A DNA stretch of 64,000 nt from an uncultured Acidobacteriota bacterium (lineage in GTDB: Bacteria; Acidobacteriota; Blastocatellia; RBC074): assembly GCA_963800895.1 (NCBI GenBank), contig CAWDDA010000022.1:9243-73242 (forward strand). The letters are read 5' to 3'. This document shows, in pieces, positions 1 to 59,053 of the stretch. Numbering within the stretch: the first letter of the stretch is position 1; each line of letters opens with the position of its first letter. The notes under the pieces were generated by a model that worked only from the letters and a program-made list of their open reading frames with translations, made no database searches and had not been told where the DNA came from. Made by a program: the position numbers and the translations under genes.

Positions 1-1737
1 GGTCGGTTACTGTTTTTTCTCGAAAGTTTTTCGAGCGCGTTCCCTTTCTCACGGCGGGAATGCCCTTGCGCTTCGTGTAGGCCTGCATCGGGAACCGGAA
101 ATAGCGCGGCTTCCACTGCTCGGCCTTCTGGCGGCCGTTCGTACCGTCGAGGAACTGCCGGATCACGTCCTTCTGCTGGCGTGCCGTCTCCTTGATGTAC
201 TGCGAGGCGATGGTCTTGCCCGCGATCTCCGCCATCATGGCGTTGATCGCCGGTTTGTCGCGCAGGAGCTCGAAGAAGGCGTCGTCCGCCGTCCACCACT
301 TGTCCATGTCCACACCAAGGATCAAGCCAAGGGCTTCCACCGCGGCGCTCCCGGCCGGGAGCGATTCCGCCATGATGAAGGCCAGCACGCGCAGCACTTC
401 CGCGTCCGTCATCTGCAGGAGGCGGGCGAAGAGGGTGGCGGCGTCTCCGTTATTCCGCTCCCCTAGAAGGAACTGTTCGTTGTCCTTCAGCCCCAGCATT
501 TCCTTCACCGCAGCCAGCTCCGCGTCGAAGGCAGTTCTTGCCGAACTGCCCGCAAGCGAAGCGGCAATGCTTCTCGTTGCCGTTCGCGCTCTGGGCTTCC
601 GGGCGCACGTCCCAGAGCCCTTCGGAGCTGATGACGCTCGCCGCGATGAGGCGCAGCGCCAGGAGCGGGGATTTCAGAAGCTCCACCCGCACGGCGTTCT
701 GCCGGTGCAGATCGACGTAGCGGATCGCGGCCTGAGACAGCTCCGGCTTGTCCGCCGAAGGTTCTGCAGCGTCCTCCTTGCCCTCAGCGGTCGCCTTCGC
801 CGCCAGCTTGTCGCGGCGGGCTGCCTCCTTCTCCTCGAGATAGCCTTCGTGGAATCCGACCGTGCCGTCGGTCGGCACAGGCGATATAGACCTTGCCGCC
901 CTTCGTCCTGCCGCGTTTCACCTTGTCGTGGGTCCAGAAGCCTTTCCCGATTTCCATGATGACGACGTCGCTCCACCCGGCTTCCAGATAGGCGGCCTGG
1001 CGGTGGATGATCTCCTGCGTCTGGAGCTTCCAGAATTTGTCGGCGTCATCGAAATACCGGTCCTCGCCGAAGAGGTCGGAGACGATGTTGCCGGGGTACT
1101 GCTCGAGAGGGAACAAGGCCGACGACACCGGAATTTCCGCGCCAAACAGCCACGCCTTCAGCTGCCACCCGGTCGGGGCATTGCCCTTCTTGTGCAGCTT
1201 CAGCCATTTCGTCTGCTGCGCGGGCGTCGCCAGGGTGAGAAGCTGCAGCGTCCCCGGCTCGATATCGTCCTTGCGGTAAGCGTCAAGGATCGCCGGGATG
1301 AGGCTTGCGATCGCCAGACGCCGGTTGACCAGCAATTCGGTCACGCCGAACTGGCTGGCAATGTCCGGTACAGTGCGTCCTTGCGCCTTGATCGCGGCGA
1401 AGGCCTCGAACTGGTCGATCTCATCCATGGGCAGGCGCGCGATGTTCTCGGCAAGGGAGGCCTCGATCGCTTTCGCGTCGTCGCCATCCTCCAAGACGCC
1501 GCACGGCACCGGCTCGGCGCGGCCGGCTTCGTCCCCCAATGCCCGCAGGGCTAGAAGGCGGCGCTGCCCGGCGATGACGTCATAGCCTTCGCAGTTCTGC
1601 CGCACCAGAAGCGGCTGAATGATGCCGATGCTGCGGATGCTGGCGATCAGCTCCGGCAGCTCCTCGGCCCCGCCGTGCTTGCGCACGTTCAGCGGCGAGG
1701 GCTTGAGCTGCGAGAGGTCGATATGTTGAAGTTTCAT
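1..1737 (-). pseudogene. ParB/Srx-like nuclease-domain protein of ICE/plasmid type, 3' end beyond window, interrupted by frame changes
   Basis: Reverse translation starts MKLQHIDLSQLKPSPLNVRKHGG...IIQPLLV...VIAGQRRLLAL (ParB N-terminal motif). The protein continues through three frames: ORF 784-1779, ORF 450-878, and an untracked frame reading ...LLQMTDAEVLRVLAFIMAESLPAGS...WKPRYFRFPMQAYTKRKGIPAV to position 1. Frame breaks lie near 870 and 530. Confidence 0.75.
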
Positions 1738-1825
1738 AGTGGTTCTCCTTGGTAAAAAGGTGCGGAATTGCACCGGCAAAAGCGCGGGTCACCGGGGAGG
1801 CGGCCGCGCTCTCTGCGCTGCAATC

Positions 1826-2151
1826 TCACCACAGGAGGATCGTGAGCACGCGGTAGGTTTTGGAAGGATCGGCAGGGTCTTCGCTGCCGGTGTTCATATC
1901 GGGGGAGGCGTAGTAGTCAATTTCCAGTAGATGCGCTGCCCCGCATGATCGAACGCACCGAAGTCGTGTTCGCCGTAGGGGTCGGCATCCTCGGTGAAGA
2001 CGCTGAACTCGAGCACCTTGTTAAAGATGATATTTTTCGCCTCAGGCGGCAGGCTGTAAATTCCGGCGGTGATCACGACAATTCCCGGGATGTCGCAGTA
2101 TCCGAAGCTGCTGCGGAATCGGTCGTTGAGGGATGCGATTTGATTGCTCAT
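1826..2151 (-). pseudogene. DUF3768-like protein, one frame break
   Basis: MSNQIASLNDRFRSSF...VVITAGI...DPYGEHDFGAF...IYWK fits the DUF3768 pattern from memory. After an apparent 1-nt loss in an A-run near 1925 the other frame continues IDYYASPDMNTGSEDPADPSKTYRVLTILLW to a stop at 1826-1828. The start overlaps the upstream stop (ATGA). Confidence 0.7.
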
Positions 2152-2681
2152 GGCGCACCCCCTTGTGCCGCTGCGGCGGCTTCCTCGCGCACGGTATCCA
2201 TGCCGATGAAGCCCCAGCAGGAGCCGATTTCCTCTCCTGCTGTGTCGCAGACACGTAGCCGTAGCACTCACGAAAATTCTGCCAGCTCGTGTATTCGGCG
2301 GCAATGGCGGCTGCGTATTCAGAGAGTTTGTCGTCGGTCTCCGTGCCGCTTCCCCATTCGGAGCGCTTCAGGGCGATGATGCCGACACGGCCCGGATCCA
2401 AGGGCAGTGAAAGGGATTGCTCTGTCCGACGATACATTGTGCCGGAATGGTCAAGTAGAGAAAGAGAGGTATTGCGTACCAATCGGCGGCATTCTCCTGT
2501 TCCCACGCCGCAACTTCGTCCGGGTCGCTGCCGCAAGCGCCGTCAGACAGATCGATGTAGCGGCGGTGAGGATCACGATGCGCAGAGCGTCATCGCAAAC
2601 TGACGGCATTTCGACATCCTGGTCGTGGTAGATGCGCGCGGTCATGCCGTGCGCAAGCTGAAGGGTATCAACGGGTGTCAT
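2148..2681 (-). pseudogene. Conserved hypothetical protein of the ICE-like module, at least 3 frame breaks
   Basis: Coherent peptide segments sit in different frames: MTPVDTLQLAHGMTARIYHDQD...DDALRIVILT / RRYIDLSDGACGSDPDEVAAWEQENAADWYAIPLFLY / DHSGTMYRR...DPGRVGIIALKRSEWGSG...AEYTSWQNFRECYGYV / CDTAGEEIGSCWGFIGMDTVREE. ATGA overlaps occur at both ends. Confidence 0.45.
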
Positions 2682-2903
2682 AGCGCACCGCCTTGCACGC
2701 TCGCGATAACGCGGCCGTTCATGTCGCGCAGCTCAACGCACGGCGCTTTCAGGCAGGCGGTCGCGAATCGTCCGCGGCGTCGCCATGTCGTGATGCAGGC
2801 TCTGATACTCGCCGCTTGCGCCGTAGATTTCGCGAATGGTGTAGGTAAGGCGGTGCCCGTCTTCGAAATTCCGAAAGGCACGTTGGTGTTTTTCGTCGGT
2901 CAT
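2678..2903 (-). pseudogene. Small hypothetical protein, one frame break
   Basis: MTDEKHQRAFRNFEDGHRLTYTIREIYGASGEYQSLHHDMA... continues in a second frame as ...TACLKAPCVELRDMNGRVIASVQGGAL. The stop overlaps the next start (ATGA at 2678-2681). Confidence 0.4.
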
Positions 2904-3851
2904 GATCGTTTTCCTTTGCTGTTGATTGACTTCGAACAGCAAAAAAAAATGCAGCCGGACCGAGCCGGGTCATCCAAGATCCTCTTCGTTTCGCCTTGCT
3001 CGAAACGAAAGGATCTCTGGAAATTGACGCGGCGAAGCGGACGGCTGGTACAATGCGAAGTTCGTAAGAAAGCACACCACGGGAGTAGGGCGTGGCGCGA
3101 AGCGCGCGGCATTGCGCCGGGCAGGCGGGGAATGCGGCTGCGCCGCCGCGCTTTCTCATTGCCGGTCGGGGGCTTGCGGGGTGCCCCCGCTGGAAAGGGG
3201 TGTGCTCGAGACTACAGGCTCGAGCCAGGGGGAAGGCTTTCCCCCCTTTAAGACGGTAAAAACCGGCCCTGTGGTACAACCGCTAAATGCGAATCAAAGA
3301 GCCAGTTCCGAACGGCCATATCAGTGAGATCGACCCGGAATGAGGTGTACTATCTCATGGATAAAACCACATCCGGTCCAATCATTAGTTGTCGGCTTCC
3401 TTCCTATTGTTCGTCGTCAGCGGTGCGAGTCAAAAGCCCTCCTACGATCCCGGAAGCCCTTTTTTTAACGCTCGGACTTTCTCTCCAGGTCACTATCGAA
3501 GCGAGAAAGCCCTACAAAATGCTGTCACAAAGCTCTTCCCGACTGGCACTCCAAAAAAGAATTAGGATTGTATTTCAGGCGATATCGCGGGGTTGTGCTC
3601 TTCGTCACAAAGCACGGCACTAACTAATTTGAGGATGTTTTTTCCAAGGCGCTGGCGCACCGAGCCGCATCTCTTCCCCAGGCCCTATCTCTCAGCCCGG
3701 CCGTGCACGCTCACGCCACCAACACTTGAACTGGATATTCGCCGCACAGGCGGGGTAAAATTCCTCCTGATGAAGGGCGCGCGGTTGTTGCGTTGCGCTT
3801 CCAGGCGGCGCGGCGACCCGGCCGGCCGTTATTCAAGAACAGGAGGCTCTC

Positions 3852-4226
3852 ATGGCAGCTCTCTGGTTCAGGACCGGCTCGACGATGATCTTCGACACCT
3901 TCCGGCCCTCGAAGCGCTTCAAGGCCGTCATGGCCGAACGCATGCAATCGGAGCGTTTCACCGGCATCGTGGTTAACGATTTCCGAGGTCACCGTGGAAG
4001 GGATGGCGGATGGACCGCGCTCCACCCGGTGTGGCGAAGCGACATGGACGGCGGGCGTCAGGAATTCGTCTTCGTCGTCATGTGTGCCGCCGACAGCGAG
4101 GATGTCGCGAAGGGCAACGCCGGTGACGTTCAAGCCATGCGTCGGCTGGAACGACGATCTGTGGCCGCAGTAGCGTCGTGCTGGCCACCATGTTCGGCGT
4201 CACGAAGGGCGAGATTTTCGCCCTAA
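3852..4226 (+). CDS. Hypothetical protein
   Basis: ATG is preceded by AGGAGG 6 nt upstream (caggaggctctcATG). I recognise no motif, and the ORF may itself be frame-damaged. Confidence 0.3.
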   Translation: MAALWFRTGSTMIFDTFRPSKRFKAVMAERMQSERFTGIVVNDFRGHRGRDGGWTALHPVWRSDMDGGRQEFVFVVMCAADSEDVAKGNAGDVQAMRRLERRSVAAVASCWPPCSASRRARFSP

Positions 4227-4245
4227 TACTAAATTTGTCGGGAAT

Positions 4246-4440
4246 GTGACCTTGTCCGAGGATTGGGACGCGGAGCATTTCTTCGTCGACTATCATGGCG
4301 GAAGGAATGATAGCGACGGAGAAGCTATAAGAGTGCTCTACGATGATCAGGAACGTGTAACAGAAATTATTGCTACATCATTTGGCGGATCAATAGGTGG
4401 ATATGACTTTCCAAACTTTTTCACAAAAGAGTGCCAATAA
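4246..4440 (+). CDS. Small hypothetical protein (64 aa) in a low-GC islet
   Basis: ORF only. Its composition differs from the surrounding GC-rich DNA, and I recognise no motif. Confidence 0.25.
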   Translation: MTLSEDWDAEHFFVDYHGGRNDSDGEAIRVLYDDQERVTEIIATSFGGSIGGYDFPNFFTKECQ

Positions 4441-5435
4441 TCGCTTCGGCTAGTGGTGCGCTGCATCCCGCCGCGAGGATAGGAGAAATGGCGACGACAA
4501 GGACCCAGCCTACATACCGACGCAAGACGAAATGGAGTGCGATCTTGAGGCTGCATGGCAGTTAGCGCTCAAGCTCCATGGCTGTGTCGAGTGTGCGAGA
4601 GTGGATTTCATCCAGCGCCTGCGCTTCATGGCGATGAACAAAAACAACGAGATCATGGGGCCTGTGACGCTGCCCCTGGATGAAAAGCAGGAGCCTCCCC
4701 ATGGAGAGGGACGGGATCAGCCGCATATGCGTGCGCTGTCAGACGCCATTGCCGCCCGGCGTGGGCTTCTTCAAGCACGGCACGGATGAGCTGGCTGACT
4801 TCAAGGACGATGCGGAATAGGCGGGGATGACCTCTGTTAAACTGAAAGAGGTGAGGCAACCATGAGCGAGGACAAAAAACCGGAACATCTGAAAGGATGG
4901 CTTGATCGCCCGCCGCTGTCGGACTGGTCGGAGGAGGAGCAGGGCTTCGCATTTGATGCATTTCGGATCCCTCGCCGCGCTCGATCACGACAAGTCGATT
5001 TACTGCGCCCGGCATTTCGTGGAGTTCTTTGAGGAAGCGAAGCAGCCAGCGGGAATTGCCCTGGGAGAATCCATGGCGCTGAGAGGCAAATTCTTCGCGG
5101 TATCCTTGGACGGATTCCCTGCCTTCGCCTGAGCGGCTTCGCGCAGGCAGGCGGGACCGCTGGCGGGGTCGATGGGGTAAGATTGCCCGGGCGGTTTAGC
5201 GGGCTTGTACCACTCAAGGAGTATATCGAGCATCGCCCAATAAAATTCCGCGTCGGCTGTTCGCCCTTCGCGGTCTGCCAGCTCGGCGCTGTGCGCGGCG
5301 CGATCGCAGGCGAAAAGGACCGTATTCGTCAGCGGAGTATTTCGCGGCCTCCTCGGGGGTCGTGATTCCCAGCTCGCGGTATTCAGCGGAGCGTCGGGCA
5401 TGGCAGGGCCTCGGGCTGCGATTGGTGGTTATACC

Positions 5436-6061
5436 CTATTTGGACGGCGGTTCTGCGCGCAGAACGGAGGTCAAGCCGTTTGTCCATGCATCTTTAAGCT
5501 CACGGGTGGCGAAGTGCCGATAGTTGCAGTTCGTCTGGTTGGGGCCGTTCACGGCAAAGTCGCGCCCGGCCTCGAATGCTTCTTTTGTTGACTGGTCGGC
5601 CGGGTCTATGTGCCCGGCAATCGCGCGCAGGTCGGCGGCGGAAAATTCGCCGTGGAGCCTCAGTGTGACCGTCTCCGGCGTCCATTCGATATAGGGGACG
5701 CTGCACGACAAGCTGCCGTCGCTCTGGACTACGTTTCTTTTCTCTAAAACGGTGTCTGTCATGCGAGACTCGGGCTGCGGCTTGAACGGCTTCACCTTGA
5801 TCTTCGCGGCATGCTTCTCAGCCTGCGCCAGGTCGTAATCCATCTGCATCCCAAGCCAGAGCTCGGGGCTGCTGCCGAACGCCTTGGACAGGCGGATAGC
5901 CATTTCCGGGCTGACGCCGTTCTTGGCATTTACAAGGTTGCTGAGGGTCAGGCGGGTGACGCCAAGCACCTCGGCTCCTTTGGTGATGCTAAGGCCCAAC
6001 GAGGCTTCAGGCAATCCTCTAAAACATGTTCGCCGGGATGCGGCGGGTTCTTCATACGCAT
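5436..6061 (-). pseudogene. higA: HigA-family XRE antitoxin with an in-frame ~95-aa C-terminal extension, one frame break near 6005
   Basis: AGGAG RBS then MRMKNPPHPGEHVLEDCLKP, a frame change, then LGLSITKGAEVLGVTRLTLSNLVNAKNGVSPEMAIRLSKAFGSSPELWLGMQMDYDLAQAEK (HigA HTH signature). The ORF continues without a stop into an unrelated segment (MTDTVLEKRNVVQSDGS...). Confidence 0.65.
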
Positions 6062-6072
6062 GGTTCTCTCCT

Positions 6073-6290
6073 TCAATGGTAGTCGATCAAGTCAACGTCA
6101 ATCGTTACCTAATCTTCGCCAGGGCCGCCAATTCCGCACAAGCTCCTTGAGACCCTTTCCAACAGCTGCAGCACCCACTTCCGTACGGGTGAGCCAGTTC
6201 AGTCGGCCCTGGAAGGGGCGAGATGGCAAGGCAGCAGAAGATCCGAATTGAGGTATTTGCCGACTGAGCTGGACCCACGGGTGTGGACCA
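6073..6290 (-). pseudogene. higB: HigB/RelE-like toxin remnant, heavily frame-damaged
   Basis: It lies immediately upstream of higA in the usual toxin-first higBA order. The reverse frame ends ...VTIDVDLIDYH-stop, with the TGA inside the higA RBS region, resembling the ...VEIVDYH C-terminus of HigB. Upstream pieces are only weakly HigB-like and scattered over three frames. Confidence 0.3.
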
Positions 6291-6359
6291 CTGGATCGGA
6301 TTCTTAGTTGAGAGCGGGGCCGTTCCTCTCTTCTGACCTTGCTAGGTCCGGAGGCGAGC

Positions 6360-6840
6360 ATGCGCACAGCCATCGTCAACCTCGACAGGATCGTCACCGG
6401 CTCTCTCACCGAGCCTTTCGCGCCGGGCGACGGCTGCTGATGGAGGACGGCCGGATCACCGCCATCGGCACCCTGCCGGCCGACAAGGTCGCGGCGTGCG
6501 ACGTGGTCGTCGATGCCGGCGGCACGATCGCGATCCCCGGCCTCATCGACGGCCAGGTCCACTTCACCTTCGGCGACTACACGCCGCGCCAGAAGGTCGT
6601 CGGCTGTCTCGAAAGCTACGTCCATAGCGGCACGACGACGTCGAGCTCGGCGTCGGAAGTGCACGTTCCAGGCCGGCCCAAGGACCCGCCGGCATGAAGC
6701 CCTGGCGCTGGCCGCCCGTGCCTGCTTCCTCACCTATCGGCCTGGCGGCATGCGCGTCCATGCCGGCTCGATCATCCTCGAGCCCGGCCTGACCGAGGAC
6801 TACCTGAAGGACGTCGCCGCGCGGGGCCTGTCGACCACCT
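6360..6840 (+). pseudogene. Amidohydrolase-family protein, two frame breaks and 3'-truncated
   Basis: MRTAIVNLDRIVTGSLTEPFAPGD / RLLMEDGRITAIGTLPADKVAACDVVVDAGGTIAIPGLIDGQVHFTFGDY...SASEVHVPGRPKDP / MKALALAARACFLTYRPGGMRVHAGSIILEPGL. The G-x-IPGLID-x-H-x-H-like metal-binding N-terminus is present. Recognisable sequence ends near 6840. Confidence 0.55.
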
Positions 6841-6999
6841 TCACGGCGGTTGAGGCGGGAGCGCGCGGCTCAGTGAGCGGCGCCGGCGAAGTCCTGCGGC
6901 AGGCGGCATTGGGCAACAGCGCGCTGTTTCGCCGTGCTCGCGGGCGATGGCGATCGCCGCATCGAGGCTCTCGGGCCGGTGGAACGTGAAGCCCATCGC

Positions 7000-7856
7000 C
7001 TATCCCGTCGCCCGTCCAATGAAGTCTCGAACGGTTCGAAGGAACTTGGCGTTCTCTTCCCGCATGAGCCGATGGCCGCTTTCCTCGAAGATCATCTGCT
7101 CGGCGCCCGGTATGCCTTCACGATCTCGTCGGACGCGTCGGGCGGCGCGATCCTGTCGTGGCGCCCAGTGAGGACGAGAGTCGGAGCCGTGATCCCGGCC
7201 AGCCGGGATCTTACGTCGTAGGTCTTCCGGTCCTGCGCGAAGAACCAGTTCAGCATGTCGATATCGGCGATCGGCTTGAAGCCGCCCGGCGGCGTCCGCT
7301 TCGGGTCGTATTCGTAGAACGACGAGAGAGCGGCGAAGACGCGATCCAGGTCCTCGGCGGACTCGACTGTCCCATGCCGGAGGCGCGCTAGCGCCTCGCG
7401 CTGCTCGGGCGAGGCGATGTCGTGCAGGCGGGAAAGGCCGCGTTCCAGCGCTTCGTTGCTGGCCGCCGTCGCGCACGGGATGAGACCCGCGACGCTGTCC
7501 GGATAGGTCACGGCATAGGTCAGCGCGAGCATGCCGCCGAACGACATCCCGAACACCACGATGCGACCGAGACCCAGTGCCTGGCGCAGGGCCTCGAGAT
7601 CGTCGGCCATGTTGGCCAGCGTGCGCGTCTCGACCGGTGGGCGCGACGAGCGGCCGTTGCCGCGATGGTCGACGAGGATGAGCTGCGCCATGTCGGCGAT
7701 CGGGGTCAGCCACGGCACAAACTGCGAGTGGTCGATGCCCGGGCCGCCATGGAGGGCGACGACCACGGGCTTATCGACCAGCTCGTTGCCTCGCGCGCCA
7801 AGGCTGGAGCCGTGGACGTCGAAGAACAGCTCCACGCCGTTGACCGCGATGCGCAT
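7000..7856 (-). pseudogene. Alpha/beta hydrolase (proline iminopeptidase-like), one frame break near 7105
   Basis: MRIAVNGVELFFDVHG...VVALHGGPGIDHS...VDHRGNGRS...VFGMSFGG (GxSxG nucleophile elbow)...LVLTGRHDRIAP. The C-terminus continues in a second frame (IPGAEQMIFEESGHRLMREENAKFLRTVRDFIG). Confidence 0.75.
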
Positions 7857-7860
7857 CGCT

Positions 7861-8352
7861 CAGCGCGCCTTGTTCCGGGTCAGGACGGTGTCCTGTGAAG
7901 CCTCTTCGAATCTCATCGTCCGGCGCGTGCATTGAACAATGATGGTGCCATATCTTCCACACCGGATTGCCGGCGCCGTCGTCGCGTATCAGCACTTCGG
8001 TCTCGCGGACCCTGAACCACCTGTCCGGGGTGCCCGGGGGAAGCTGCCCGCCCGGCTTCGCGACGCGGCGGATGACGGCCTCGTGAGAGACCCACGCCAT
8101 GTCGCCCCGCACCTCGATCCGCATGTCGATGACCTCCAGTTGCGGGAGGCCGTAGTCGCGGCCGATCAGCTCCCAGAGCTGGGTCAGCTCATCGACCGAC
8201 CAGTAGGTATGCCCATTGAGGTTGTACTGCAGGAGCTTGTCTCCCGACGCAAAGCACGCGCGCATGCGCGGGATGTCGAGATTGGTGTTCGCAGCCCACC
8301 ACTCGTCGTGGATGCGTTTGACTTCGGCGATATCCTCTTCAACGGTCGGCAT
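7861..8352 (-). pseudogene. SnoaL/NTF2-like protein, probable frame break near 7905
   Basis: AGGAG RBS; MPTVEEDIAEVKRIHDEWWAANTNLDIPRMRACFASGD...WKIWHHHCSMH. The alternative frame ends ...FEEASQDTVLTRNKAR-stop at 7861, just before the next gene start. The tracked ORF otherwise runs 90 nt into that gene. Confidence 0.5.
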
Positions 8353-8369
8353 ATTCGAACTCCTGAACC

Positions 8370-9394
8370 CTAAGACTTCACGCGCGGCCAGACATCCTTG
8401 CCGAGCGTCACCAGTGTCTGCTCGGGGTCGAGCCTTCGCAGGGCAGCGGCATGACGATGAAGGAGTCGACGCCGGCGGCCTTGAGCTCGTTCATGTGCTG
8501 CACGACCTCGTCGGCCGTGCCGGCCAGGGTGAAGGCATCGACGTGGCGGTCGGTCACCAGCGGCAGCAGCGGCGTATAGGGTGCGGCGCCATCGGCATAA
8601 CGGACGTTGGCGAACGGCGCGATCTGCTCGTCCGTCAGGGTCAGGCCCTGCTTCTCGGCGGTCATGAACTTCAGCCGGCCCGCCGCCAGCATGCGCGCCA
8701 CACCTAGCCGCACGCCATCGCGCGCCTTCTTGCCGTCGGGCGCCAACGCAGGCATTGAGGCGCAGCCACCACCTTCACCGCGGCGGGATCGCGGCCCTTG
8801 CGCTTGGCGCCCTCGGCCAGGATGGCGCGGAAGGCCTTGACCTCCTCGACATTGCCGCAGCCTTCCATGATCGCGCCATCGGCGACGCCGCCGGTCATGC
8901 GCTGGCCGAGCGGCCCGTTGCTCGCGACATAGACGGGAATGTCGGCCCGCACCGGCTTGAAGGAGAGCTTGCCGTTGTTGAAGCCGACGACGTCGCCGTG
9001 GAAGTCGACCGACTCGCCCTTCAGCAGCGCGCGCATCGACCTCGATCGCCTCGCGGATCGCGGCGGCCGGCTTCTTGCGCACGATGCCGAGCTCGGCGAA
9101 GCCCGAGATGCCGGCGCCGATGCCCAGGATGGCGCGCTGGTCGGAGATCTCGTCGAGCGTGGCGATCGCCATCGCCGTCAGCGCCGGATGGCGCGCGAAG
9201 GGATCGGTGACGCAGGTGCCGAGCTTCACCCTCGTGGTATGCTGGGCGAGGATCGCCAGGGTCGAATAGACCTCGCGGTAGAAACGCTCGTCGGCCACCC
9301 AGAGCGTGTCGTAGCCGTTGGCCTCGGCAAGCTTGGCGCGCTCGACCATTTGCGCGATCGGCACATTGCCCAGCATCAGCAGTTCGAGAGACAT
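8370..9394 (-). pseudogene. Luciferase-like (LLM class) flavin/F420-dependent oxidoreductase, three frame breaks
   Basis: MSLELLMLGNVPIAQMVERAKLAEANGYDTLWVADERFYREVYSTLAILAQHT... The middle lies in ORF 8704-9036 (VDFHGDVVGFNNGKLSFKPVRADIPVYVASNGPLGQRMTGGVADGAIMEG). The tail is ...TADEVVQHMNELKAAGVDSFIVMPLP, then LDPEQTLVTLGKDVWPRVKS-stop in a third frame. Confidence 0.75.
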
Positions 9395-9406
9395 GTCAGC
9401 AACTCC

Positions 9407-10207
9407 TCACGCGGCTTCATTCCAGGACGGCGCCGAGAAGGCGGCGAAGCGCGTCGCCGTCCAGTACTCGTCGTCGAATTTCATGCCGACCTCGCAGCCG
9501 GCGCGCATCAGCAGCGTGACGATGCGCGACTTCTCGTTGGCCGAGATCATGGCCGCCGAATAGGAGATGCAGATCGCGACCCGCTCGCCGCTTTCGCGGT
9601 CCTCGACGCAGACCGCAATCGACTCGACGCCGGGCAGGCTCTCGTCGGTCGCCTGCGACCAGCCCTTCTCGCGCACCAGCGCGAGCACGGCAGGAGATCG
9701 TCGACGGTTTGCGGCGCGTTGGGCGACGGCGGCTGCAACGGCGCCGGATAGAGCGCGCGCACCGCATCGTCATCGAGTCGCGCCAGCATCGCGCGGCCGG
9801 TCGAGGAGCAGAAGGCCGGCAGCCGGTCGCCGGGCGAGGTCACCACGCGCAGCGGCTTGCTGCCCGGCCGCATCCGCAGGCCCAGCACATCGGTGCCGTC
9901 GAGGATCGCGACGTAACCCGTGTGGCCGGTCGCCTTGGCGATCCGCGCCAGCGCCTCGTCGGCGACCACGCTCAGGGTCGAATTGACCCTATGACGCCGC
10001 GAGGTCTCGAAGATCAGGTTGCCGACGCAGTAGCCCGAGGGCTGCATCGGTGGTGGCGAGCAGGCCGGTCTCGGCCATGGCTTTCAGCAGTCGCGACGAG
10101 GAACTCTTGGGCAGCGCCAGAAGCTGCGCGACTTCGGTCACGGACAGCACGCTGCGCTCCGGCGTGAACAGCCGGAGCACGCGTGCGACGTTGCCGACCG
10201 AATTCAT
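9407..10207 (-). pseudogene. IclR-family transcriptional regulator, two frame breaks
   Basis: MNSVGNVARVLRLFTPERSVLSVTEVAQLLALPKSSSSRLLKAMAETGLL (winged HTH) / GYCVGNLIFETSRRHRVNSTLSVVADEALARIAKATGHTGYVAILDGTDVLGLRMRPGSKPLRVVTSPGDRLPAFCSSTGRAMLARL / ...LALVREKGWSQATDESLPGVESIAVCVED. It is divergent from the ABC transporter genes. Confidence 0.75.
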
Positions 10208-10385
10208 GATCACGATCTCCACGTTCCATTTTTCCGAAGCTATCGACCTATAATTGGAACGCGCAACTCGTAAATGGCCTAAATCCTGCACACAGTCCTG
10301 CTGCATGCGTCGTGTGTTCCAGAAATCGACGATCGATTGACAAGACTGGAACGCTATGGACTGAATGAGGCGGGGCTCTGGAGGG

Positions 10386-12027
10386 ATGATGGTCATGGGG
10401 ATCAAGGCGGATCGGCGCACATTCCTGAAACTTTCGTCGGGAGCCGGCGCGCCGGCGCTGGGCGGCTTGGGCGCGCCTGCCGGCGCGGGCGCAGGCCGGC
10501 TCGACGCTGACCGTCGCCTGGGACACCGACATCGACAGCCTCGACCCGCACGTCTTCAAGTCGGTCGGCGGCTATGCCGTGCAGTGCAACCTCTACGACC
10601 CGATCGTCTCGTGGAAGGTGCGGCCGGTCGAGGGCACCAAGGGCCTGTCGCGCTCCTTCCCCAACGAGTTCGAGGGCAGCCTCGCCGAATCCTGGACCTT
10701 CGAGCGCGACGGCGCGACGATCGTGCTGAAGGTCCGGCCGGGCATGAAGTTCCCGAGCGGCCGGCCGGTCGATGCCGCGGCGCTCAAGTATTCGCTCGAC
10801 CGCGCGCTGCAGTCGCCGGGCTACATGCGGTTCATCATGCCGCGCATGATCCAGGTCTCCAAGCCGGAGGAGATCGTGGTGCGCGATCCATGCACCATCG
10901 CCCTCGACATGAAGGGGCCGACGCCGCAGCACGATGGTGCTGAACTTCCTGTCGCTGATGACCATCACCGCGCTCGATCCCGAGCTGGTGAAGCCGAACG
11001 CGACCGAGAAGGACCCGTGGGCCGCCGACTGGGCCAAGCGCAATGCCGGCGGGCTCCGGCCCCTACACGCTCGCCGCCAACACGCCGGGCGTCGAGGTCG
11101 TGCTCGAGGCGCGCAAGGACCATTGGCGCGGCAAGCCCGCGTTCCAGAAGATCGTCCTGAAGTTCGTGCCCAACGAGGCCGACCGCGTGCTGCTGCTGAA
11201 GCGCAAGGCGGTCGACCTGGTGATCGGCCGGCCGGGCCTGTCGCCGCGCAACATCAAGACCTTCGAGAACGAGAAGGACTTCCGCATCGTCACGGTGCCG
11301 GACACGACCTGCCACTGGCTGGCGATGAACCAGACCAAGAAGCCGCTCGACAACGTCAAGGTGCGGCAGGCGATCAACTACGCCATCCCGATCGCCGCGA
11401 TCGTGCCCAACGTGCTGATGGGCTACGGCTCGGCCATGAAGTCGCCGGTGCCGGCGCTGACGCCCGGCCACGACGCCAACCTCTCGCCCTACAAGTACGA
11501 TCTCGACAAGGCGCAAGGCGCTGATGAAGGAGGCCGGCGTCACCACGCCGGTCACGCTCGACCTCGCCGTGCGCATCGGCTGGCAGCCGCACGAGGAGGC
11601 CGCGGTGTGGATCCAGCGCGAGCTCGAGAAGATCGGCTTCAAGATCAACATCACGCGCCAGACCGACGCCACCTTCCGCCAGCTCGCCACCAAGGGCGAC
11701 TTGCAGCTTTCGATCGAGACCTGGCAGTCGTGGGTGAACGATCCGTTCTTCCACATGGTGCCGCTGTTCCATTCGACCTCGAAGGGCACCAACACGGCGT
11801 TCTACAGCAACCCGGCCCTGGACAAGATCCTCGACGAGAACTACCACGAGCCCAACGCCGAGAAGCGCCTGGCGGCCGCCAGGGCAGCCCAGAAGATCGT
11901 CATCGACGACGCCGTCTGGGGCATGCTCTGGTACGACAACTGGACGCGCGTGATGCGCAACGACCTGGTCGGCGTCGAGAAGCGCTGGGACACCTTCGAG
12001 CGCTTCACGTCGCTCAAGACCGGCTGA
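10386..12027 (+). pseudogene. ABC transporter substrate-binding protein (family 5, peptide/nickel type) with Tat signal, four +1 frame breaks
   Basis: GGAGGG RBS; MMVMGIKADRRTFLKLSSGAGA (twin-arginine motif). The reading frame steps 0>1>2>0>1 near 10490, 10925, 11050 and 11515, and each segment is typical SBP_bac_5 sequence (...AESWTFERDGATIVLKVRPGMKFPSGRPVDAAALKYSLDR...; ...HWLAMNQTKKPLDNVKVRQAINYAI...; ...AFYSNPALDKILDE...). Confidence 0.8.
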
Positions 12028-12042
12028 ACGGCAGCCAGCACG

Positions 12043-12556
12043 GTGGGTTTCCTCGGTTACTTCCTGCGCCGACTGTCGCTCGTCATCCCGACCCTGCTGG
12101 GCGTGACCATCATCACGTTCACGCTCACCTATGTCCTGCCGGGCAATCCGGCGGTCGTGAAGGCGGGGCCGCTGGTCTCGCCCGAAGTGGTGAAGGAGCT
12201 GGAGAAGGAGATGGGCCTCGACCAGCCGGCCTGGGTGCAATACTGGCGCTACATCTCGGGCGTCGCGCGCGGCGATCTCGGCCAGAGCTCGTCGACCGGA
12301 CGGCCGGTGCTGGAGGATTTCAGGCAGCGCCTGCCGGCGACGCTCGAGCTCACCCTGGCGAGCCTGCTGATCGCCCTCGTCATCGGCATCCCGCTCGGCG
12401 TGCAATCGGCCGTCCATCGCGACACCGCGATCGACCATATCGGCCGCATCGTCGGCGTCGCGGGCGTCGCCATGCCGACCTTCTGGACCGGCCTGCTGGC
12501 GCTCTACGTCTTCTTCTATCTGCTGGGCGTCGCGCCGCCGCCGTTGGGGCGATTGG
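12043..12556 (+). pseudogene. ABC transporter permease (DppB/OppB-like), 3'-truncated at the block junction
   Basis: MGFLGYFLRRLSLVIPTLLGVTIITFTLTYVLPGNPA...LELTLASLLIALVIGIPLGV...FWTGLLALYVFFYLLGVAPPPLGRL. Permease sequence ends abruptly at ~12,556, about halfway through a normal ~310-aa protein. Confidence 0.8.
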
Positions 12557-12570
12557 CAAGCGGTCACTCA
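12550..12570. other. Breakpoint between two unrelated sequence blocks
   Basis: A truncated permease gene abuts the interior of a PpiD-like gene. Composition, gene phylogenetic flavour, frame-break density and repeat content all change at this point. Confidence 0.8.
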
Positions 12571-14108
12571 GACTTCGAGGTGAAGACATCGGTCAGTACG
12601 AGGCCAATCTCAGGAAAGCCGCTGCTCTCACACGATTCCGCGTTTACCTCACATCAGCTGAACAGGTATCGGACCGTGAAATTGAGCGGACGTTCAAACA
12701 CGACAACACCAAGGTTGAAGTCTCCTACGCCATAATTGATCTCGAAAAGGTCCGCAGCAAGTTCAATCCGAATGATGCGGAGCTGCTCGCGTATTACGAA
12801 CAGCATAAGGATAAGTTCAAAGCTAACGAGACCGTAAGGAAAGTTGATTACATCTTCATCCCGACCGATGAAGTCGCGAAGACTCTCAAGTTCACCGATG
12901 AAGAGCTCAAGGCGCAGTACGATCAGAACAAGCAATTTGAACCGCGAGCGAGCATCATCAAACTCAACGTTCTCACGCCCAATGATGAAACGACTGTCAA
13001 AGCAAAAATAGATCAACTCAGCCAGAGAGTTCGGGGAGCTCCAGGCATTCCGGCAGAGGATTTTGCTGCAGTCGCCAAGGGCAATTCTCAGGATCCCTCA
13101 GCAGCCAAAGGCGGTGATCTGGGCTTTATAAAGAAGGAGCCCAACAACACTCAGGACTGGAAGCAGCGCGCCCACAACATTGAGCCGGGCAATATCGACG
13201 GACCGTTCCGTCATGGCAGTGCCTATTACATTATGAAGGTCACTGAGAAACGCGAAGTTCCTTTCGCGGCCATGAGAGCGACTGTCGAGGCTGGGCATCG
13301 CAATCGTCAGGGTTTCGCAAAGGCATCACAGATAGCGGACAAAGCTTACGAGAAGGCCACCGAATATAAGGACCTCAAGAAAGCCGCCGAGGAGATAGCG
13401 AAGGAACTCAACATTGGGGTCGACAAAGTATTCCGGACTACTCCTTTCTTCAAGAATGGCGATTCACTTCCGGGTTGGGGCAATGTCCCGCAGTTTGAAT
13501 CGACTGTTTCTGAGCTGAAGAAGGGGGAGATCGGTGACAAGGTCGCAATTCCCGACGGTCACGCGATTCCGCAGGTGGTTGACGAGAGAACGAACGGAGC
13601 GCAGCTGACATTTGATGAAGCGCGTAATCAGGTTGAACAGGAATTGCGCAAAGAACGCGAGCCGGACGTCGCGAAACAACGCGCAACCGAGATCGTTACC
13701 ACAGCCAAGACTCCTGCAGAATTCGCGTCAATGTTGAAGGCCGAAGGAATCGAGACGAAGACGAGCACCAATCTTGATAATCTTCAGGCGCCTGGTGCGG
13801 CTTCGGGTGGACTGCAGTTGTTGCAACAGGCAAGGACCACCGTCATCAATCTCAAGGAAGGCGAGATCTCCCAGATCCCAATAAAGTGGGGAGCAGGATA
13901 TCTGATCTTCGCGGCTACCAAGCGAACCGAACCTGATATGTCCAAGCTCACAACGGACCGGGAAGCGCTTCGCACGAAGATCCTGCAGGAGCGTCAGATG
14001 GCGGTCTATGACAGTTACATCAAGGCTGCCCGCAAACGCTACGAGCAGGACGGCTCTCTCAAGATCTACCAGGACCGGATCGACAATTTCCTGAATTCAG
14101 GACAGTAG
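12557..14108 (+). pseudogene. PpiD/SurA-like periplasmic peptidyl-prolyl isomerase, 5'-truncated at the junction
   Basis: The C-terminal ~515 aa of tracked ORF 11043-14108. It contains a parvulin core, AAVAKGNSQDPSAAKGGDLGFIKK...GPFRHGSAYYIMKVTEKRE, flanked by chaperone-type helical regions. No N-terminal TM or start is present. Confidence 0.8.
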
Positions 14109-14109
14109 C

Positions 14110-14256
14110 GAAGAAGGGGGTCGGGGGTCGGGGACCAGGGGTCGGGGTATGGAGTTCAAGCTTTAGCTTGCTGCTTCCAACCGAGCTATCGAAGAGCAAG
14201 CTAAAGCTTGAACTCCGTACCCCGACCCCTGGTCCCCGACCCCCGACCCCTTCTTC
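14110..14256. repeat. Heptamer-armed hairpin element E1 (G-rich arms + conserved core)
   Basis: GAAGAAGGGGGTCGGGGGTCGGGGACCAGGGGTCGGGGTAT-GGAGTTCAAGCTTTAGCTTGCT-22 nt loop-AGCAAGCTAAAGCTTGAACTCC-complement of the left arm. It lies between two convergent stop codons (14106-08 and 14259-61). Confidence 0.95.
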
Positions 14257-14258
14257 AT

Positions 14259-15275
14259 TCACTTCGCCAGCTGGTCGATTACCGCTGATGGGATCTTGAG
14301 GGTCAGCGTGACGTCGCTTGCTTCAGTCGCGATCTTTACCTGATCGAGCAGCTTCGCCCCCGTTTCGAACCGTGGGTCCTGATTACCCGAAAGAAATGAC
14401 TTCCCTAGAAATACCAGGCTCTTCAGACTGTCCTGCATCTGGATGGCGTGTTCCTTCGAGGCGGTGCGCAGGCGTGAATCGATGAGACCATCTTTCTCAG
14501 GCGTGAGATCAATGGTCCCAAAGATGACTTTCACAGCAGCCAGCTGCTCGAAAAGCTCACCCTGACTCTTAAGCACCTCGCGCAGCCCTTCGGGAAGCGT
14601 AAGACCAAAACGCATGAGCGCTGTCGTCCGTGTTTCTTTTAGCGCAGCAATCTGAGCCTCATTCGATTTGCCGGCTCCTTCGACAGGATGGAGCACAGCA
14701 GTGACTCCTTGAGTGTCCCCGACAACTACCCTTTGTGGACCGAGCGATGCAATAACCAGTTCGGCATCTTTTACTGGAGCCTGAGTGGGATTTGCGGGGT
14801 CGGCCGGTTTGAACCTGGTCAGGCGATACGCTGATTTGCCTTGAAGATCGAGAGTGTCGAACTGCCACTTCGCGGCTGCGGCCGACGTTTGAAGCCGTTT
14901 GACATCGAGCGCGACACCGTCAGCGATGAGTACTCCGCCACGCACGTTGATACCTTCCATCCTTAGTCCGATCAAAGTGGCTGTGACCTTGAGTGGATCG
15001 ATACCCGCCTTCTCCATGAAGGATTCGATGTCCTGGACGAGCTTTGAGACCCCTCCCGTCTGAATTGTTCTGAGGCGAGGTAAGAGATCTCGTGTCGCGC
15101 CGGGCAGATCGAGTGACGCTACGAGGTTCGACGGGGGAAGAAGCGCTGCCAACTCATCGAGTGTTCGTGTCGCAGCCGGTGGGACCGCAGCCTGAGGTCC
15201 TGTGACAGATTTCGATGTGGGATAAGAGAAAAGACCCACCGAAAGAATTGCTAAGAGAACAATCTGTTTGGGCAT
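14259..15275 (-). CDS. Hypothetical secreted protein
   Basis: The internal start MPKQIVLLAILSVGLFSYP gives a signal peptide. The ORF is long and uninterrupted, and I recognise no domain. Confidence 0.65.
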   Translation of the reverse strand: MPKQIVLLAILSVGLFSYPTSKSVTGPQAAVPPAATRTLDELAALLPPSNLVASLDLPGATRDLLPRLRTIQTGGVSKLVQDIESFMEKAGIDPLKVTATLIGLRMEGINVRGGVLIADGVALDVKRLQTSAAAAKWQFDTLDLQGKSAYRLTRFKPADPANPTQAPVKDAELVIASLGPQRVVVGDTQGVTAVLHPVEGAGKSNEAQIAALKETRTTALMRFGLTLPEGLREVLKSQGELFEQLAAVKVIFGTIDLTPEKDGLIDSRLRTASKEHAIQMQDSLKSLVFLGKSFLSGNQDPRFETGAKLLDQVKIATEASDVTLTLKIPSAVIDQLAK

Positions 15276-15364
15276 TGATTCAATCTCTCCATTTAGCGAC
15301 CTTGACAGTTGCACGAACCGGGAAGTACTTTCCAATTATAGCAGAACGCGATGGATAGATATCG

Positions 15365-15934
15365 ATGAGGGCTGCAGACACCGGGCGAAACGCATCGAAG
15401 GGCGGGCGCTCAGAAGAACACCTTTGGATGGTCGCACTTTACGAAGAGGAAGAGCGCACGGCGGAACTGCTCGACCGGCTGGCGGCCCTTGGGATTGACA
15501 CCAGCGAAGCGAGCATCGTTCGGGTTGAGCTAAGTCACACTGCGGAGACCGCTAAGCCATTTCCTTCCATCGCACCGATTACCCCAAAGTCCGTCGCTCC
15601 AACGGCGCGAAACTCTATTACAGGCGGGGTTCTGGGAAGCGCTGTGGGACTCGTTGCCGGAATTTTTGTTTACGCATCCGCCGCTGTACGGTTACCGCTT
15701 CCTGACAGAATGTTCGTTTACGCTTTCGTGTCGGCAATCTTGGGAGGCCTGTTGGGAGGAGTTAGCGGTGCTATATGGAGTGCGCTCGGACGGAATGTTC
15801 AGGCTAACGAGATTATTCGGAGGATTCCCCCCGATCGTGACGGGTTTCTGGTTGCAGTGAAGATGCGGCCTCAGATTGCGGAACAGGCCGAAGAGATTGC
15901 CCGCCGCCTTGGTGCCAAGGAGGTTCTCCTTTGA
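15365..15934 (+). CDS. Hypothetical membrane protein with glycine-rich TM segments (start may be 15428)
   Basis: Soluble N-terminal part (MVALYEEEERTAELLDRLAALGIDTSEASIVRV), then GGVLGSAVGLVAGIFVY and AILGGLLGGVSGAIW helices. Confidence 0.5.
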   Translation: MRAADTGRNASKGGRSEEHLWMVALYEEEERTAELLDRLAALGIDTSEASIVRVELSHTAETAKPFPSIAPITPKSVAPTARNSITGGVLGSAVGLVAGIFVYASAAVRLPLPDRMFVYAFVSAILGGLLGGVSGAIWSALGRNVQANEIIRRIPPDRDGFLVAVKMRPQIAEQAEEIARRLGAKEVLL

Positions 15935-15956
15935 ATTGCGATCCTTTGAGCTTCAA

Positions 15957-17102: not shown

Positions 17103-17113
17103 GCTGAGGCATG

Positions 17114-17182
17114 ACGTTCAAAGCTTCAGCTTTCCTCCTGTTCAGGCGAGCTAACCAACCAGCAAGCTATAGTTTGAAACTC
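17114..17182. repeat. Decayed copy of the conserved core hairpin
   Basis: GTTCAAAGCTTCAGCTT...AGCAAGCTATAGTTTGAAAC resembles GGAGTTCAAGCTTTAGCTT...AGCAAGCTAAAGCTTGAACTCC. It has several substitutions and no heptamer arms. Confidence 0.5.
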
Positions 17183-17287
17183 TATGTGTCCACTCCCTGA
17201 TTGATTTAGCGAATAAAGTGGATTACGATTCGTGACGTTGAAGCATCCTTCGAAAGGCGCATCACTTTTTACCCATTACAATCAGGC

Positions 17288-18853: not shown

Positions 18854-18855
18854 CC

Positions 18856-19719: not shown

Positions 19720-19743
19720 GTCCTTGTTTCCAGGAGGCAATAG

Positions 19744-58746: not shown

Positions 58747-58950
58747 GGATATTTCTCCTGGCGTCGCGGACTCCTGTGCGCTTTTGGTCGGAGACCGCAA
58801 CCTGAGTTTCAAAAATGCTGATTAATGCTTCTCAAAAGGCTGGTGAATCACCAGACGGCCTGCGAGATTAAACCCCTAAGTTTCGAGACTAGCAGTGGAG
58901 TGTTAAACGCAATTTAGGTGACCGTTAATTCTGTCTTAACAAGGCCGCTC

Positions 58951-59020
58951 CCGGGAGCGCTGGCCTCTGGCCGGCGCTTGATCCCAGGAGACGCGCCGGT
59001 CAGAGACCGGCGCTCCCAGG
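58951..59020. repeat. Type-B inverted repeat (GGGAGCGC motif) in a divergent promoter region
   Basis: CCGGGAGCGCTGGCCTCTGGCCGGCGC-15 nt-GCGCCGGTCAGAGACCGGCGCTCCCAGG. The arms are complementary apart from a few mismatches, and the terminal motif is shared with 25958-25992. Confidence 0.6.
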
Positions 59021-59053
59021 GTGTGCTAATCTCTCAATCCGAGGTAATTCGTT

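What the first reader, a model, noticed from the sequence alone, without database searches (positions are those of the whole stretch)
12540..12580. Abrupt junction of two unrelated genomes through two truncated genes
A DppB-like permease ends at ...YLLGVAPPPLGRL, about half of normal length. The sequence then continues directly in the interior of a PpiD-like isomerase gene. Five properties change at the same point:
- base composition (about mid-60s % to low-50s % GC by eye);
- codon style;
- taxonomic flavour of the proteins;
- frame-break density;
- presence of the hairpin elements.
I find no IS end, integrase, att-like direct repeat or tRNA at the join. The 1021-aa tracked ORF 11043-14108 is an artefact of read-through across this join. 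The most economical reading is an assembly or binning chimera. A real illegitimate-recombination insertion into ppiD is the alternative.
Basis: partly seen in the sequence, partly recalled or inferred. Interest (0 to 1): 0.6.

Follow-up and report, generated by a model that had tools for sequence, protein, structure and literature searches.

The report
Cross-phylum assembly chimera inside one contig
The abrupt join is real in the sequence, but it is almost certainly an assembly error that glued DNA of a soil alphaproteobacterium (Reyranella family) onto the end of an acidobacterial (Blastocatellia) contig; it is one of ten such foreign ends in this draft genome and matters only for quality control.

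Summary
Left of window 12551 the DNA is Reyranellaceae (Alphaproteobacteria). It is 91.7% identical over 5.6 kb to a Reyranella MAG contig, and every reference alignment stops at 12551. Right of 12557 it is the Blastocatellia host. It is 97% identical over 11.6 kb to an independent ENA contig whose ppiD is intact (661 aa) and preceded by the mreBCD-PBP2-rodA cluster. Five bases (ATTGG) between them are unassigned.

The join leaves dppB with residues 1-174 of 338 and ppiD with residues 146-661. Neither missing half is anywhere in the 4.26-Mb bin. GC, GC3 (0.92 versus 0.61), a 5-mer model, frame-break density and the host's REP-type hairpins all switch at this point. There is no tRNA, integrase, IS end or flanking repeat.

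Ten high-GC foreign blocks (177 kb, 4.2% of the bin) sit at contig ends. Five of the six other junction frames scanned show a domain cut off mid-profile. The donors come from at least two phyla, Pseudomonadota and Actinomycetota.

My reading is an intra-contig assembly chimera, not a binning error and not horizontal transfer (about 0.9).

The parts
6918..12551 (.). Reyranellaceae (Alphaproteobacteria) chromosomal segment: alpha/beta hydrolase, luciferase-like monooxygenase, IclR regulator, family-5 solute-binding protein and the 5' half of dppB. It is rich in frame breaks.
   Evidence: blastn gives 91.7% identity over 5673 nt to L014 (Reyranella sp. MAG) and 82-88% to seven further Reyranellaceae-like contigs. 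Nine of the twelve reference contigs align up to exactly 12551 while their own sequence goes on.
10324..12024 (+). Family-5 ABC solute-binding protein gene of block A, broken into four frame segments.
   Evidence: tblastn of the intact 583-aa L014 orthologue gives HSPs in frames 1, 2, 3 and 1. The SBP_bac_5 profile is split over separate ORFs. Single-base indels against L014 lie at 10890-11515.
12043..12551 (+). 5' fragment of a DppB/NikB-type ABC permease gene (residues 1-~170 of 338).
   Evidence: NCBIfam Opp2B 1-159/300 and DppB 2-156/339; Pfam BPD_transp_1_N plus only positions 1-44/184 of BPD_transp_1. It is 96.6% identical to L014 DppB residues 1-174. The C-terminal half is absent from the whole bin.
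12552..12556 (.). Five bases (ATTGG) that match neither parent: the joint itself.
   Evidence: Three-way base alignment of the window with the Reyranella reference L014 and the native Blastocatellia contig L099.
12557..14108 (+). 3' fragment of the host ppiD (periplasmic PPIase chaperone), residues 146-661 plus the stop. The membrane anchor and SurA_N domain are missing.
   Evidence: 99.4% aa identity to L099 PpiD residues 146-661. Nucleotide identity with L099 starts at 12557. Pfam Rotamase domains and NCBIfam PpiD profile from position 150/626. The N-terminal 145 aa are not found in the bin.
11043..14108 (+). Artefactual 1021-aa ORF: the ppiD frame stays open backwards through GC-rich block A.
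   Evidence: ORF list. Upstream of residue K at 12558 the translation is low-complexity R/A/G/P text with no PpiD homology.
14110..14256 (.). First host REP-type hairpin element, just after the ppiD stop. It marks host DNA.
   Evidence: Inverted repeat with 56-nt arms, 98% complementary. The element family has 205 copies, none in the terminal foreign blocks.
1..6917 (.). Remainder of block A, running on to the contig start. It has mobile-element-like content (ParB_N protein, HTH_3/XRE-type helix-turn-helix (HTH) protein) and variable GC of 0.56-0.65. A second sharp homology break at 6917/6918 separates it from the Reyranella-syntenic part.
   Evidence: Six references start aligning at exactly 6918. 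Window 6080-6917 has no real match in seven Reyranellaceae genomes.

Best explanation
The join at window 12551/12557 (C22:21793/21799) is a misassembly inside a contig of a metagenome-assembled genome.

The host contig, from a soil Blastocatellia acidobacterium, really ends somewhere inside ppiD. There the assembler carried on into DNA of a co-occurring, less well covered Reyranellaceae alphaproteobacterium and followed it for 21.8 kb until the contig ended. The link was most likely a chimeric long read or a false overlap (inferred).

The error-rich consensus of the foreign part explains its many single-base frame breaks. The fusion ORFs (the 1021-aa ORF and the 230-aa DppB-plus-tail ORF) are by-products with no biology behind them. 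The same error happened at nine other contig ends of this bin.

Shown here: the two origins, the base-level breakpoint, the intact native locus in a conspecific, the absence of both missing gene halves, and the genome-wide pattern.

Inferred: the sequencing platform (long reads), the lower coverage of block A, and the chimeric-read or false-overlap mechanism.
For: - Two parents at base resolution. Nine of the twelve Reyranellaceae-like reference contigs align up to exactly 12551 and then continue with dppB. The native host contig L099 aligns from 12557 at 97.0% over 11,576 nt.
- Native state. In L099 (same species, PpiD 99% aa) and L100 (a relative, 92% aa), ppiD is full length and preceded by a PQQ beta-propeller gene and mreB-mreC-mreD-PBP2-rodA. 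Nine family-level relatives matched at E <= 1e-148; in the five whose frames were read on the right strand the gene is full length, 662-674 aa.
- Missing pieces. L099:1-10434, the PpiD N-terminus, the DppB C-terminus and the downstream Reyranella operon are all absent from the 27 contigs.
- Position. Block A reaches the contig end.
- Genome-wide pattern. Ten foreign blocks of 4.5-46 kb and GC 0.64-0.74 each abut a contig end, with a step change within about 100 nt. They total 176,970 bp.
- Other junctions also cut genes mid-domain: PGI 1-290/486 fused in frame to Methyltransf_11 29-93/95; OMP_b-brl_4 1-297/838; CTP_transf_3 1-67/217; MacB_PCD starting at 93/207.
- Several donors. C22 is Reyranellaceae (96% aa). 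The C26 PGI is only 72-75% identical to the same Reyranella genomes. The C23 block's nearest named relatives are Mycobacterium/Mycolicibacterium at 80-83%.
- Frame-break density is about ten times higher in block A than in block B.
- Host REP hairpins are absent from all terminal blocks.
- No mobile-element hallmarks at the join.
- Cross-phylum chimeric contigs are documented in long-read metagenome assemblies. They are recognised by sudden shifts in GC, coverage and gene taxonomy (bioRxiv 10.1101/2025.04.22.649783). They escape marker-based contamination estimates (bioRxiv 10.64898/2026.10.15.759294). This bin is scored at 2.17% contamination.
Against: No reads or coverage could be examined, so the join has not been shown to lack read support.

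There is no shared k-mer or microhomology at the joint. That excludes a repeat-collapse error, but it does not by itself separate a chimeric read from real illegitimate recombination.

The assembler and platform of this bin are not known to me. The long-read origin is inferred from the error pattern and from the contig naming of sister assemblies.

Real genomic islands also tend to lie at contig ends, so the terminal position alone is weak evidence.
Confidence: 0.9

Rival explanations
1. This is real horizontal acquisition. A Reyranella-derived segment of 21.8 kb or more integrated into the Blastocatellia chromosome by illegitimate (end-joining-type) recombination. It disrupted ppiD and displaced the mre cluster, which lies in the unassembled 26% of the genome.
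For: The joint is blunt with a 5-nt filler and no homology, as end-joining products can be. ppiD is dispensable in model bacteria (established knowledge from E. coli). The bin is only 74% complete, so a far side could simply be missing. Block A contains mobile-element-like genes further left (ParB_N, HTH_3/XRE-type helix-turn-helix (HTH) protein).
Against: It would have to have happened ten times, each time next to a contig end, with donors from at least two phyla. Among the genes cut are ones for central functions (PGI, a KdsB-like cytidylyltransferase).

The foreign DNA shows no amelioration: GC3 is 0.92, and it is 92% nt identical and syntenic to a free-living Reyranella MAG. It carries sequencing-type single-base indels in four of five genes.

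There is no integrase, att site, tRNA or IS end at the join. A conspecific has the intact locus. No host repeat element has colonised any foreign block.
Confidence: 0.05
2. This is a binning error: two genuine contigs from different organisms were placed in one bin.
Against: The two parts are contiguous in one contig, with no run of N and only 5 unassigned bases between them. Binning sorts contigs and cannot fuse them. No contig in the bin is wholly foreign: whole-contig GC is 0.544-0.576, and in the segmentation foreign blocks larger than 4 kb occur as end pieces of host contigs, plus one interior repeat-gene segment in C24.
Confidence: 0.02
3. The join was made after assembly by a scaffolding, gap-filling or contig-merging step rather than by the assembler itself.
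For: All ten foreign blocks are terminal, which is what end-to-end merging of contigs would give. The joints tested have no overlap sequence.
Against: There are no N gaps at the joints. Merging tools normally need an end overlap, and none exists here. The outcome is in any case still an artefact, so this is a sub-variant of the best explanation. Its probability is counted inside that explanation's 0.9 and is not added to it.
Confidence: 0.1

Closest known systems
Inter-species (cross-phylum) chimeric contigs in metagenome assemblies, as catalogued for metaFlye, metaMDBG and hifiasm-meta by Trigodet et al. (bioRxiv 10.1101/2025.04.22.649783) and for MAGs by Ding et al. (bioRxiv 10.64898/2026.10.15.759294)
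   Same: There is a sudden shift of GC and gene-level taxonomy inside one contig, and the two parts belong to different phyla. The chimera is invisible to marker-gene contamination scores (2.17% here against 4.2% foreign bases). Several junctions occur in one bin.
   Different: Read clipping and a coverage step, the diagnostic used in those papers, could not be checked here. In this bin every foreign block is terminal and error-rich, a detail those papers do not emphasise.
Genomic island or integrative element acquired by horizontal transfer
   Same: It is a block of deviant composition and foreign taxonomy next to native genes, and some mobile-element-like genes lie in its distal part.
   Different: There is no integrase, tRNA, att repeat or IS end at the border. 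Both border genes are cut mid-domain. Only one border exists. The content is ordinary chromosomal operon DNA, 92% identical to a free-living donor lineage, and it is full of frameshifts.
Chimeric reads from library preparation (blunt-end ligation of unrelated fragments) that carry through into long-read assemblies
   Same: It is a blunt joint with a few untemplated bases and no homology, between DNA of two organisms from the same sample.
   Different: This is inferred only. Block A (21.8 kb), and still more the 46-kb block of C21, probably exceed a typical read length (read lengths are unknown here). A chimeric read could therefore only have seeded the link, and the assembler must then have extended into the donor's own reads.

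Membership tests
Inter-species chimeric contig (assembly artefact) | Abrupt change of nucleotide composition or k-mer signature at one point within a contig | tested here: met
   GC falls from 0.72 to 0.47-0.55 within 100 nt. GC3 is 0.917 against 0.607, and the 5-mer score flips sign at 12551. An independent Viterbi change point lies at C22:21793.
Inter-species chimeric contig (assembly artefact) | The two sides are assigned to different organisms by homology, each collinear with its own reference up to the breakpoint | tested here: met
   The left side matches Reyranellaceae contigs, whose alignments end at 12551. The right side matches the Blastocatellia contig L099 from 12557 at 97% over 11.6 kb.
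Inter-species chimeric contig (assembly artefact) | Reads do not span the junction (systematic clipping) and coverage steps at the junction | not testable with these tools
No coverage information is attached to the contigs.
Inter-species chimeric contig (assembly artefact) | The native, uninterrupted locus exists in the same species | tested here: met
   ENA ERZ25039547 contig_121225 (L099) has an intact 661-aa ppiD that is 99% identical, with the mre cluster upstream.
Inter-species chimeric contig (assembly artefact) | The error recurs elsewhere in the same assembly | tested here: met
   Ten terminal foreign blocks lie in 9 of 27 contigs. Five of the six other junction frames scanned show a domain cut off mid-profile. 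Donors come from at least two phyla.
Genomic island / integrative element (real HGT) | Integrase or transposase, tRNA or other att target, and flanking direct repeats at the border | tested here: not met
   No tRNA lies in window 1-20000 and there is no Rfam hit near the join. No significant repeat brackets the join. The neighbouring genes are ABC-transporter, IclR, monooxygenase and hydrolase genes.
Genomic island / integrative element (real HGT) | Host sequence on both sides of the insert, with the interrupted gene's other half on the far side | tested here: not met
   Block A runs to C22:1. The PpiD N-terminus and L099:1-10434 are absent from all 27 contigs. The bin is only 74% complete, so absence from the organism is not proven.
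Binning contamination | The foreign DNA forms separate contigs | tested here: not met
   Foreign and host DNA are contiguous in one contig without N.

The most novel reading that the evidence does not exclude
The junction is genuine. A soil Blastocatellia strain took up at least 21.8 kb of unameliorated Reyranella chromosomal DNA and integrated it by homology-free end joining inside ppiD. On this reading, this bin records repeated very recent cross-phylum captures of chromosomal DNA.
Probability: 0.04. Interest if true: 0.6.

Novelty: not a real feature. Interest (0 to 1): 0.08.

Why it matters
The finding has no biological significance. It has practical value for quality control.

About 177 kb (4.2%) of this bin, in ten terminal blocks on nine contigs, belongs to other organisms. 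These include Reyranellaceae and an actinobacterium with Mycobacterium-like proteins. The marker-based contamination estimate is only 2.17%.

Any gene content, fusion protein (for example the 1021-aa ORF or the PGI-methyltransferase fusion in C26) or horizontal-transfer inference drawn from these contig ends would be false. The affected contigs should be split at the listed breakpoints before further use. Other findings of this scan that fall within C22:1-21793 (window 1-12551), or in the other nine blocks, should be attributed to the donors and not to the acidobacterium.

Tried and rejected
- Exact-protein look-ups of three host proteins next to the join found nothing. The route through a 99%-identical PpiD homologue worked instead.
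- I searched JGI metagenome contigs for the 32-nt chimeric junction and for the 33-nt native sequence. Both gave zero hits, so the comparison is uninformative.
- Upstream synteny in family-level relatives: the upstream genes of G004, G005 and G009 map to C26:366.6-372.3 kb, but there C26 continues with miaA and not ppiD. The closest relative, G010, has different neighbours. Synteny at that distance is not conserved, so I dropped it as evidence.
- An rRNA operon as the cause of the lower-GC stretch in block A (window 2000-5400) is rejected: there are no Rfam hits.
- Overlap between terminal foreign blocks of different contigs would have suggested a bridging island. None was found.
- Self-similarity of the junction elsewhere in the genome (a repeat-collapse misjoin): none beyond chance 15-25-mers.
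- The interior GC-rich segments flagged by the GC scan (C24, C26, C16, C27) are not counted as chimeras. Those tested are internally repetitive host genes.

Full report
**What is in the sequence**

The window is G000:C22:9243-73242 of a 4.26-Mb, 27-contig bin with 55.3% GC. The bin is scored 74% complete and 2.17% contaminated.

- In 1-kb windows, GC is 0.64-0.69 from 6 to 12 kb and 0.50-0.57 from 13 kb to the end.
- In 100-nt windows, GC drops from 0.72 (12450-12549) to 0.55 and then 0.47 within 200 nt.
The 230-aa ORF 12043-12735 begins as a DppB-type permease. The 1021-aa ORF 11043-14108 ends as a PpiD-type isomerase.
- The first ORF carries only profile positions 1-~165 of a ~300-340-residue DppB/NikB/Opp permease.
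- The second matches the PpiD profile only from position ~150 of 626, with complete rotamase domains.

**Origin of the left side**

A back-translated search with the 170-aa permease fragment found 96%-identical matches in MAGs named Enhydrobacter, Reyranella, Rhodospirillales and Reyranellaceae.

- At the DNA level, window 6918-12551 aligns with L014 (Reyranella sp. Bin_33_5_sub) at 91.7% over 5673 nt. It aligns at 82-88% with seven further such contigs.
- Nine of the twelve reference contigs align up to exactly window 12551. The references continue there with the rest of dppB.
- Against L014 there are 25 single-base and 5 two-base indels in 5.6 kb.
- Proteins of intact L014 genes map onto the window in pieces that change frame:
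  - the 583-aa solute-binding protein in frames 1, 2, 3 and 1;
  - the 365-aa luciferase-like monooxygenase in frames -1, -2, -1 and -3;
  - the IclR regulator in frames -1, -2 and -1;
  - the hydrolase in frames -3 and -2.
- DppB residues 1-174 of 338 map in one frame at 96.6%. Residues 175-338 are missing.

**Origin of the right side**

Nineteen of the 21 genomes searched (the bin itself and 18 of 20 relatives) matched the PpiD fragment. Nine family-level relatives matched at E <= 1e-148. In the five whose frames were read on the right strand, the gene is full length at 662-674 aa.

- A protein search found P0001, a 661-aa protein 99% identical over the whole fragment. Named relatives are Blastocatellia/Acidobacteriota.
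- P0001 lies on ENA ERZ25039547 contig_121225 (L099).
- In L099 ppiD is intact. It is preceded, on the other strand, by a PQQ beta-propeller gene and then mreB, mreC, mreD, PBP2 and rodA.
- A 92%-identical relative on another ENA contig (L100) has the same arrangement.
- L099:10435-21986 aligns with C22:21799-33346 at 97.0% over 11,576 nt. L099:1-10434 matches nothing in the bin.
- The N-terminal 145 residues of PpiD are not encoded anywhere in the bin. tblastn hits begin at C22:21794-21800. The only SurA_N hit is an unrelated interior gene of C23.
- The C-terminal half of the Reyranella DppB and the DNA downstream of it are likewise absent.

**The joint**

A three-way alignment shows the following:

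- Identity to Reyranella runs through ...GGGGCG (12551).
- Identity to the native host sequence starts at CAAGCGG (12557).
- The five bases ATTGG (12552-12556) match neither parent.
- There is no microhomology and no shared k-mer.
- The junction region has no other copy in the genome.
- No direct or inverted repeat brackets it.
- No tRNA or other Rfam family is nearby.
- The neighbouring genes carry no mobile-element domains.
- GC3 is 0.917 in the dppB fragment and 0.607 in the ppiD fragment.

**The genome-wide pattern decides the interpretation**

A GC scan and a two-state segmentation found large foreign segments only at contig ends. The segmentation used a 5-mer model trained on contigs other than C22. 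The ten terminal segments are:

| Contig end | Length | GC |
|---|---|---|
| C5, end | 7.8 kb | 0.69 |
| C15, end | 4.5 kb | 0.65 |
| C17, start | 6.0 kb | 0.71 |
| C17, end | 10.9 kb | 0.64 |
| C19, end | 33.8 kb | 0.66 |
| C21, start | 45.9 kb | 0.69 |
| C22, start | 21.8 kb | about 0.63 |
| C23, end | 20.7 kb | 0.66 |
| C26, start | 14.1 kb | 0.68 |
| C27, start | 11.5 kb | 0.74 |

- The C22 change point from this model is 21793, which is window 12551. That is the same base the homology analysis gives.
- The ten blocks total 176,970 bp, or 4.2% of the bin.
- Each junction is a step within about 100 nt.
- The blocks do not overlap one another.

Open frames across other junctions are also cut mid-domain:

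- C26: phosphoglucose isomerase 1-290/486, fused in frame to a methyltransferase domain 29-93/95.
- C17 start: an acidobacterial outer-membrane barrel, 1-297/838.
- C15: a cytidylyltransferase, 1-67/217.
- C17 end: a MacB periplasmic domain starting at 93/207.

The donors differ between blocks:

- The C26 isomerase is only 72-75% identical to the Reyranella genomes that match the C22 permease at 96%.
- An oxidoreductase of the C23 block has Mycobacterium and Mycolicibacterium as its nearest named relatives, at 80-83%.

The host's palindromic REP-type element has 205 copies in the bin and none in the terminal blocks (8.5 expected; binomial P = 1.7e-4). In C22 the first copy lies just after the ppiD stop.

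In block B most genes map in one frame onto L099 and L100 proteins. There are about two frame changes in 11 kb, both in one FHA-domain gene.

**Interpretation**

Taken together, these results fit an assembly chimera:

- There is one blunt join between two genes cut mid-domain, and neither missing half is present.
- The foreign side runs to the contig end and is full of consensus-type indels.
- The same happens at nine other contig ends, with donors from at least two phyla.
- A conspecific has the intact locus.

The likely mechanism is inferred and not shown. At the end of a host contig, a chimeric read or false overlap linked it to reads of a rarer organism.

Cross-phylum chimeric contigs of this kind are documented for long-read metagenome assemblers. 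They are recognised by sudden shifts in GC, coverage and gene taxonomy (10.1101/2025.04.22.649783). They are known to escape marker-based contamination estimates (10.64898/2026.10.15.759294).

It is not a binning error, because the two parts are contiguous within one contig.

A real illegitimate-recombination event cannot be strictly excluded for this single junction without reads. It would, however, have to be repeated ten times next to contig ends. It would also have to leave unameliorated, frameshifted foreign DNA and truncated central genes. I put it at about 5%.

**Limits**

- Searches for the junction and for the native sequence in JGI metagenome contigs were both empty and therefore uninformative.
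- The platform and assembler of this bin are unknown to me.
- Inside block A there is a second sharp homology break at window 6917/6918. Six references begin aligning at exactly that base, and the DNA to its left has no counterpart in seven Reyranellaceae genomes. Whether this is a strain-specific mobile element (ParB_N and HTH genes lie further left) or a further chimeric joint is unresolved.

**Verdict**

The feature is not biological. Its value is as a quality flag for this bin.

Noticed in passing
G000 contig ends: C5:129541-137352; C15:504997-509525; C17:1-5987 and 177053-187983; C19:169318-203112; C21:1-45907; C23:184527-205196; C26:1-14053; C27:1-11493: Nine further terminal high-GC foreign blocks (GC 0.64-0.74) have step-like junctions. 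Several cut genes mid-domain, for example a PGI-methyltransferase in-frame fusion at C26:~14053. The C23 block looks actinobacterial, with Mycobacterium-like proteins. Any finding of this scan that lies in these stretches belongs to other organisms.
   Followed up: partly
window 6917/6918: There is a second sharp homology break inside block A. Six Reyranellaceae references start aligning at exactly 6918. The GC-rich DNA to the left (6080-6917) has no counterpart in seven Reyranellaceae genomes. It is either a strain-specific insertion border or another chimeric joint.
   Followed up: partly
window 1-6100: The distal part of block A has lower and uneven GC (0.56-0.65) and mobile-element-like genes: a ParB_N-domain protein (784-1779, minus strand) and an HTH_3/XRE-type helix-turn-helix protein (5436-6014, minus strand). 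A roughly 2-kb stretch (3300-5400) has no ORF of 150 aa or more and no Rfam hit.
   Followed up: no
window 17292-19716: The host FHA-domain gene (809 aa in L099) maps onto the window in three frames (changes near 17441 and 18814-18850). L099 and L100 show their own splits nearby. These are probably consensus indel errors in one or more of the assemblies.
   Followed up: no
G000:C26:380001-386500 and C24:20862-26272: These interior GC-rich segments are flagged by composition. They consist of long internal tandem or dispersed repeats (74-86% identity), apparently host repeat-protein genes and not chimeras.
   Followed up: partly
G000:C20:1-4000 and 55625-60223: Both ends of C20 show short, patchy GC-rich segments (0.68-0.69). 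They were not resolved as foreign or native.
   Followed up: no
G000:C22:2816-3320 and 7240-7757 (left of the window): A 523-nt direct repeat at 86% identity lies inside the foreign block of C22, outside the window.
   Followed up: no
G001 (same-genus genome): The only same-genus genome held (82% complete) gave no match at all to the PpiD fragment, although 18 of the 20 relatives searched did. It is probably incomplete at this locus.
   Followed up: no
G000:C26:364873-372353 versus relatives G004, G005 and G009: In three family-level relatives, the genes upstream of ppiD are the orthologues of C26:366.6-372.3 kb (ending with a DsbD-like protein). In this bin that cluster is followed by miaA, and in the conspecific L099 ppiD is preceded by the mre cluster. 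So the ppiD neighbourhood has been rearranged within the family.
   Followed up: partly
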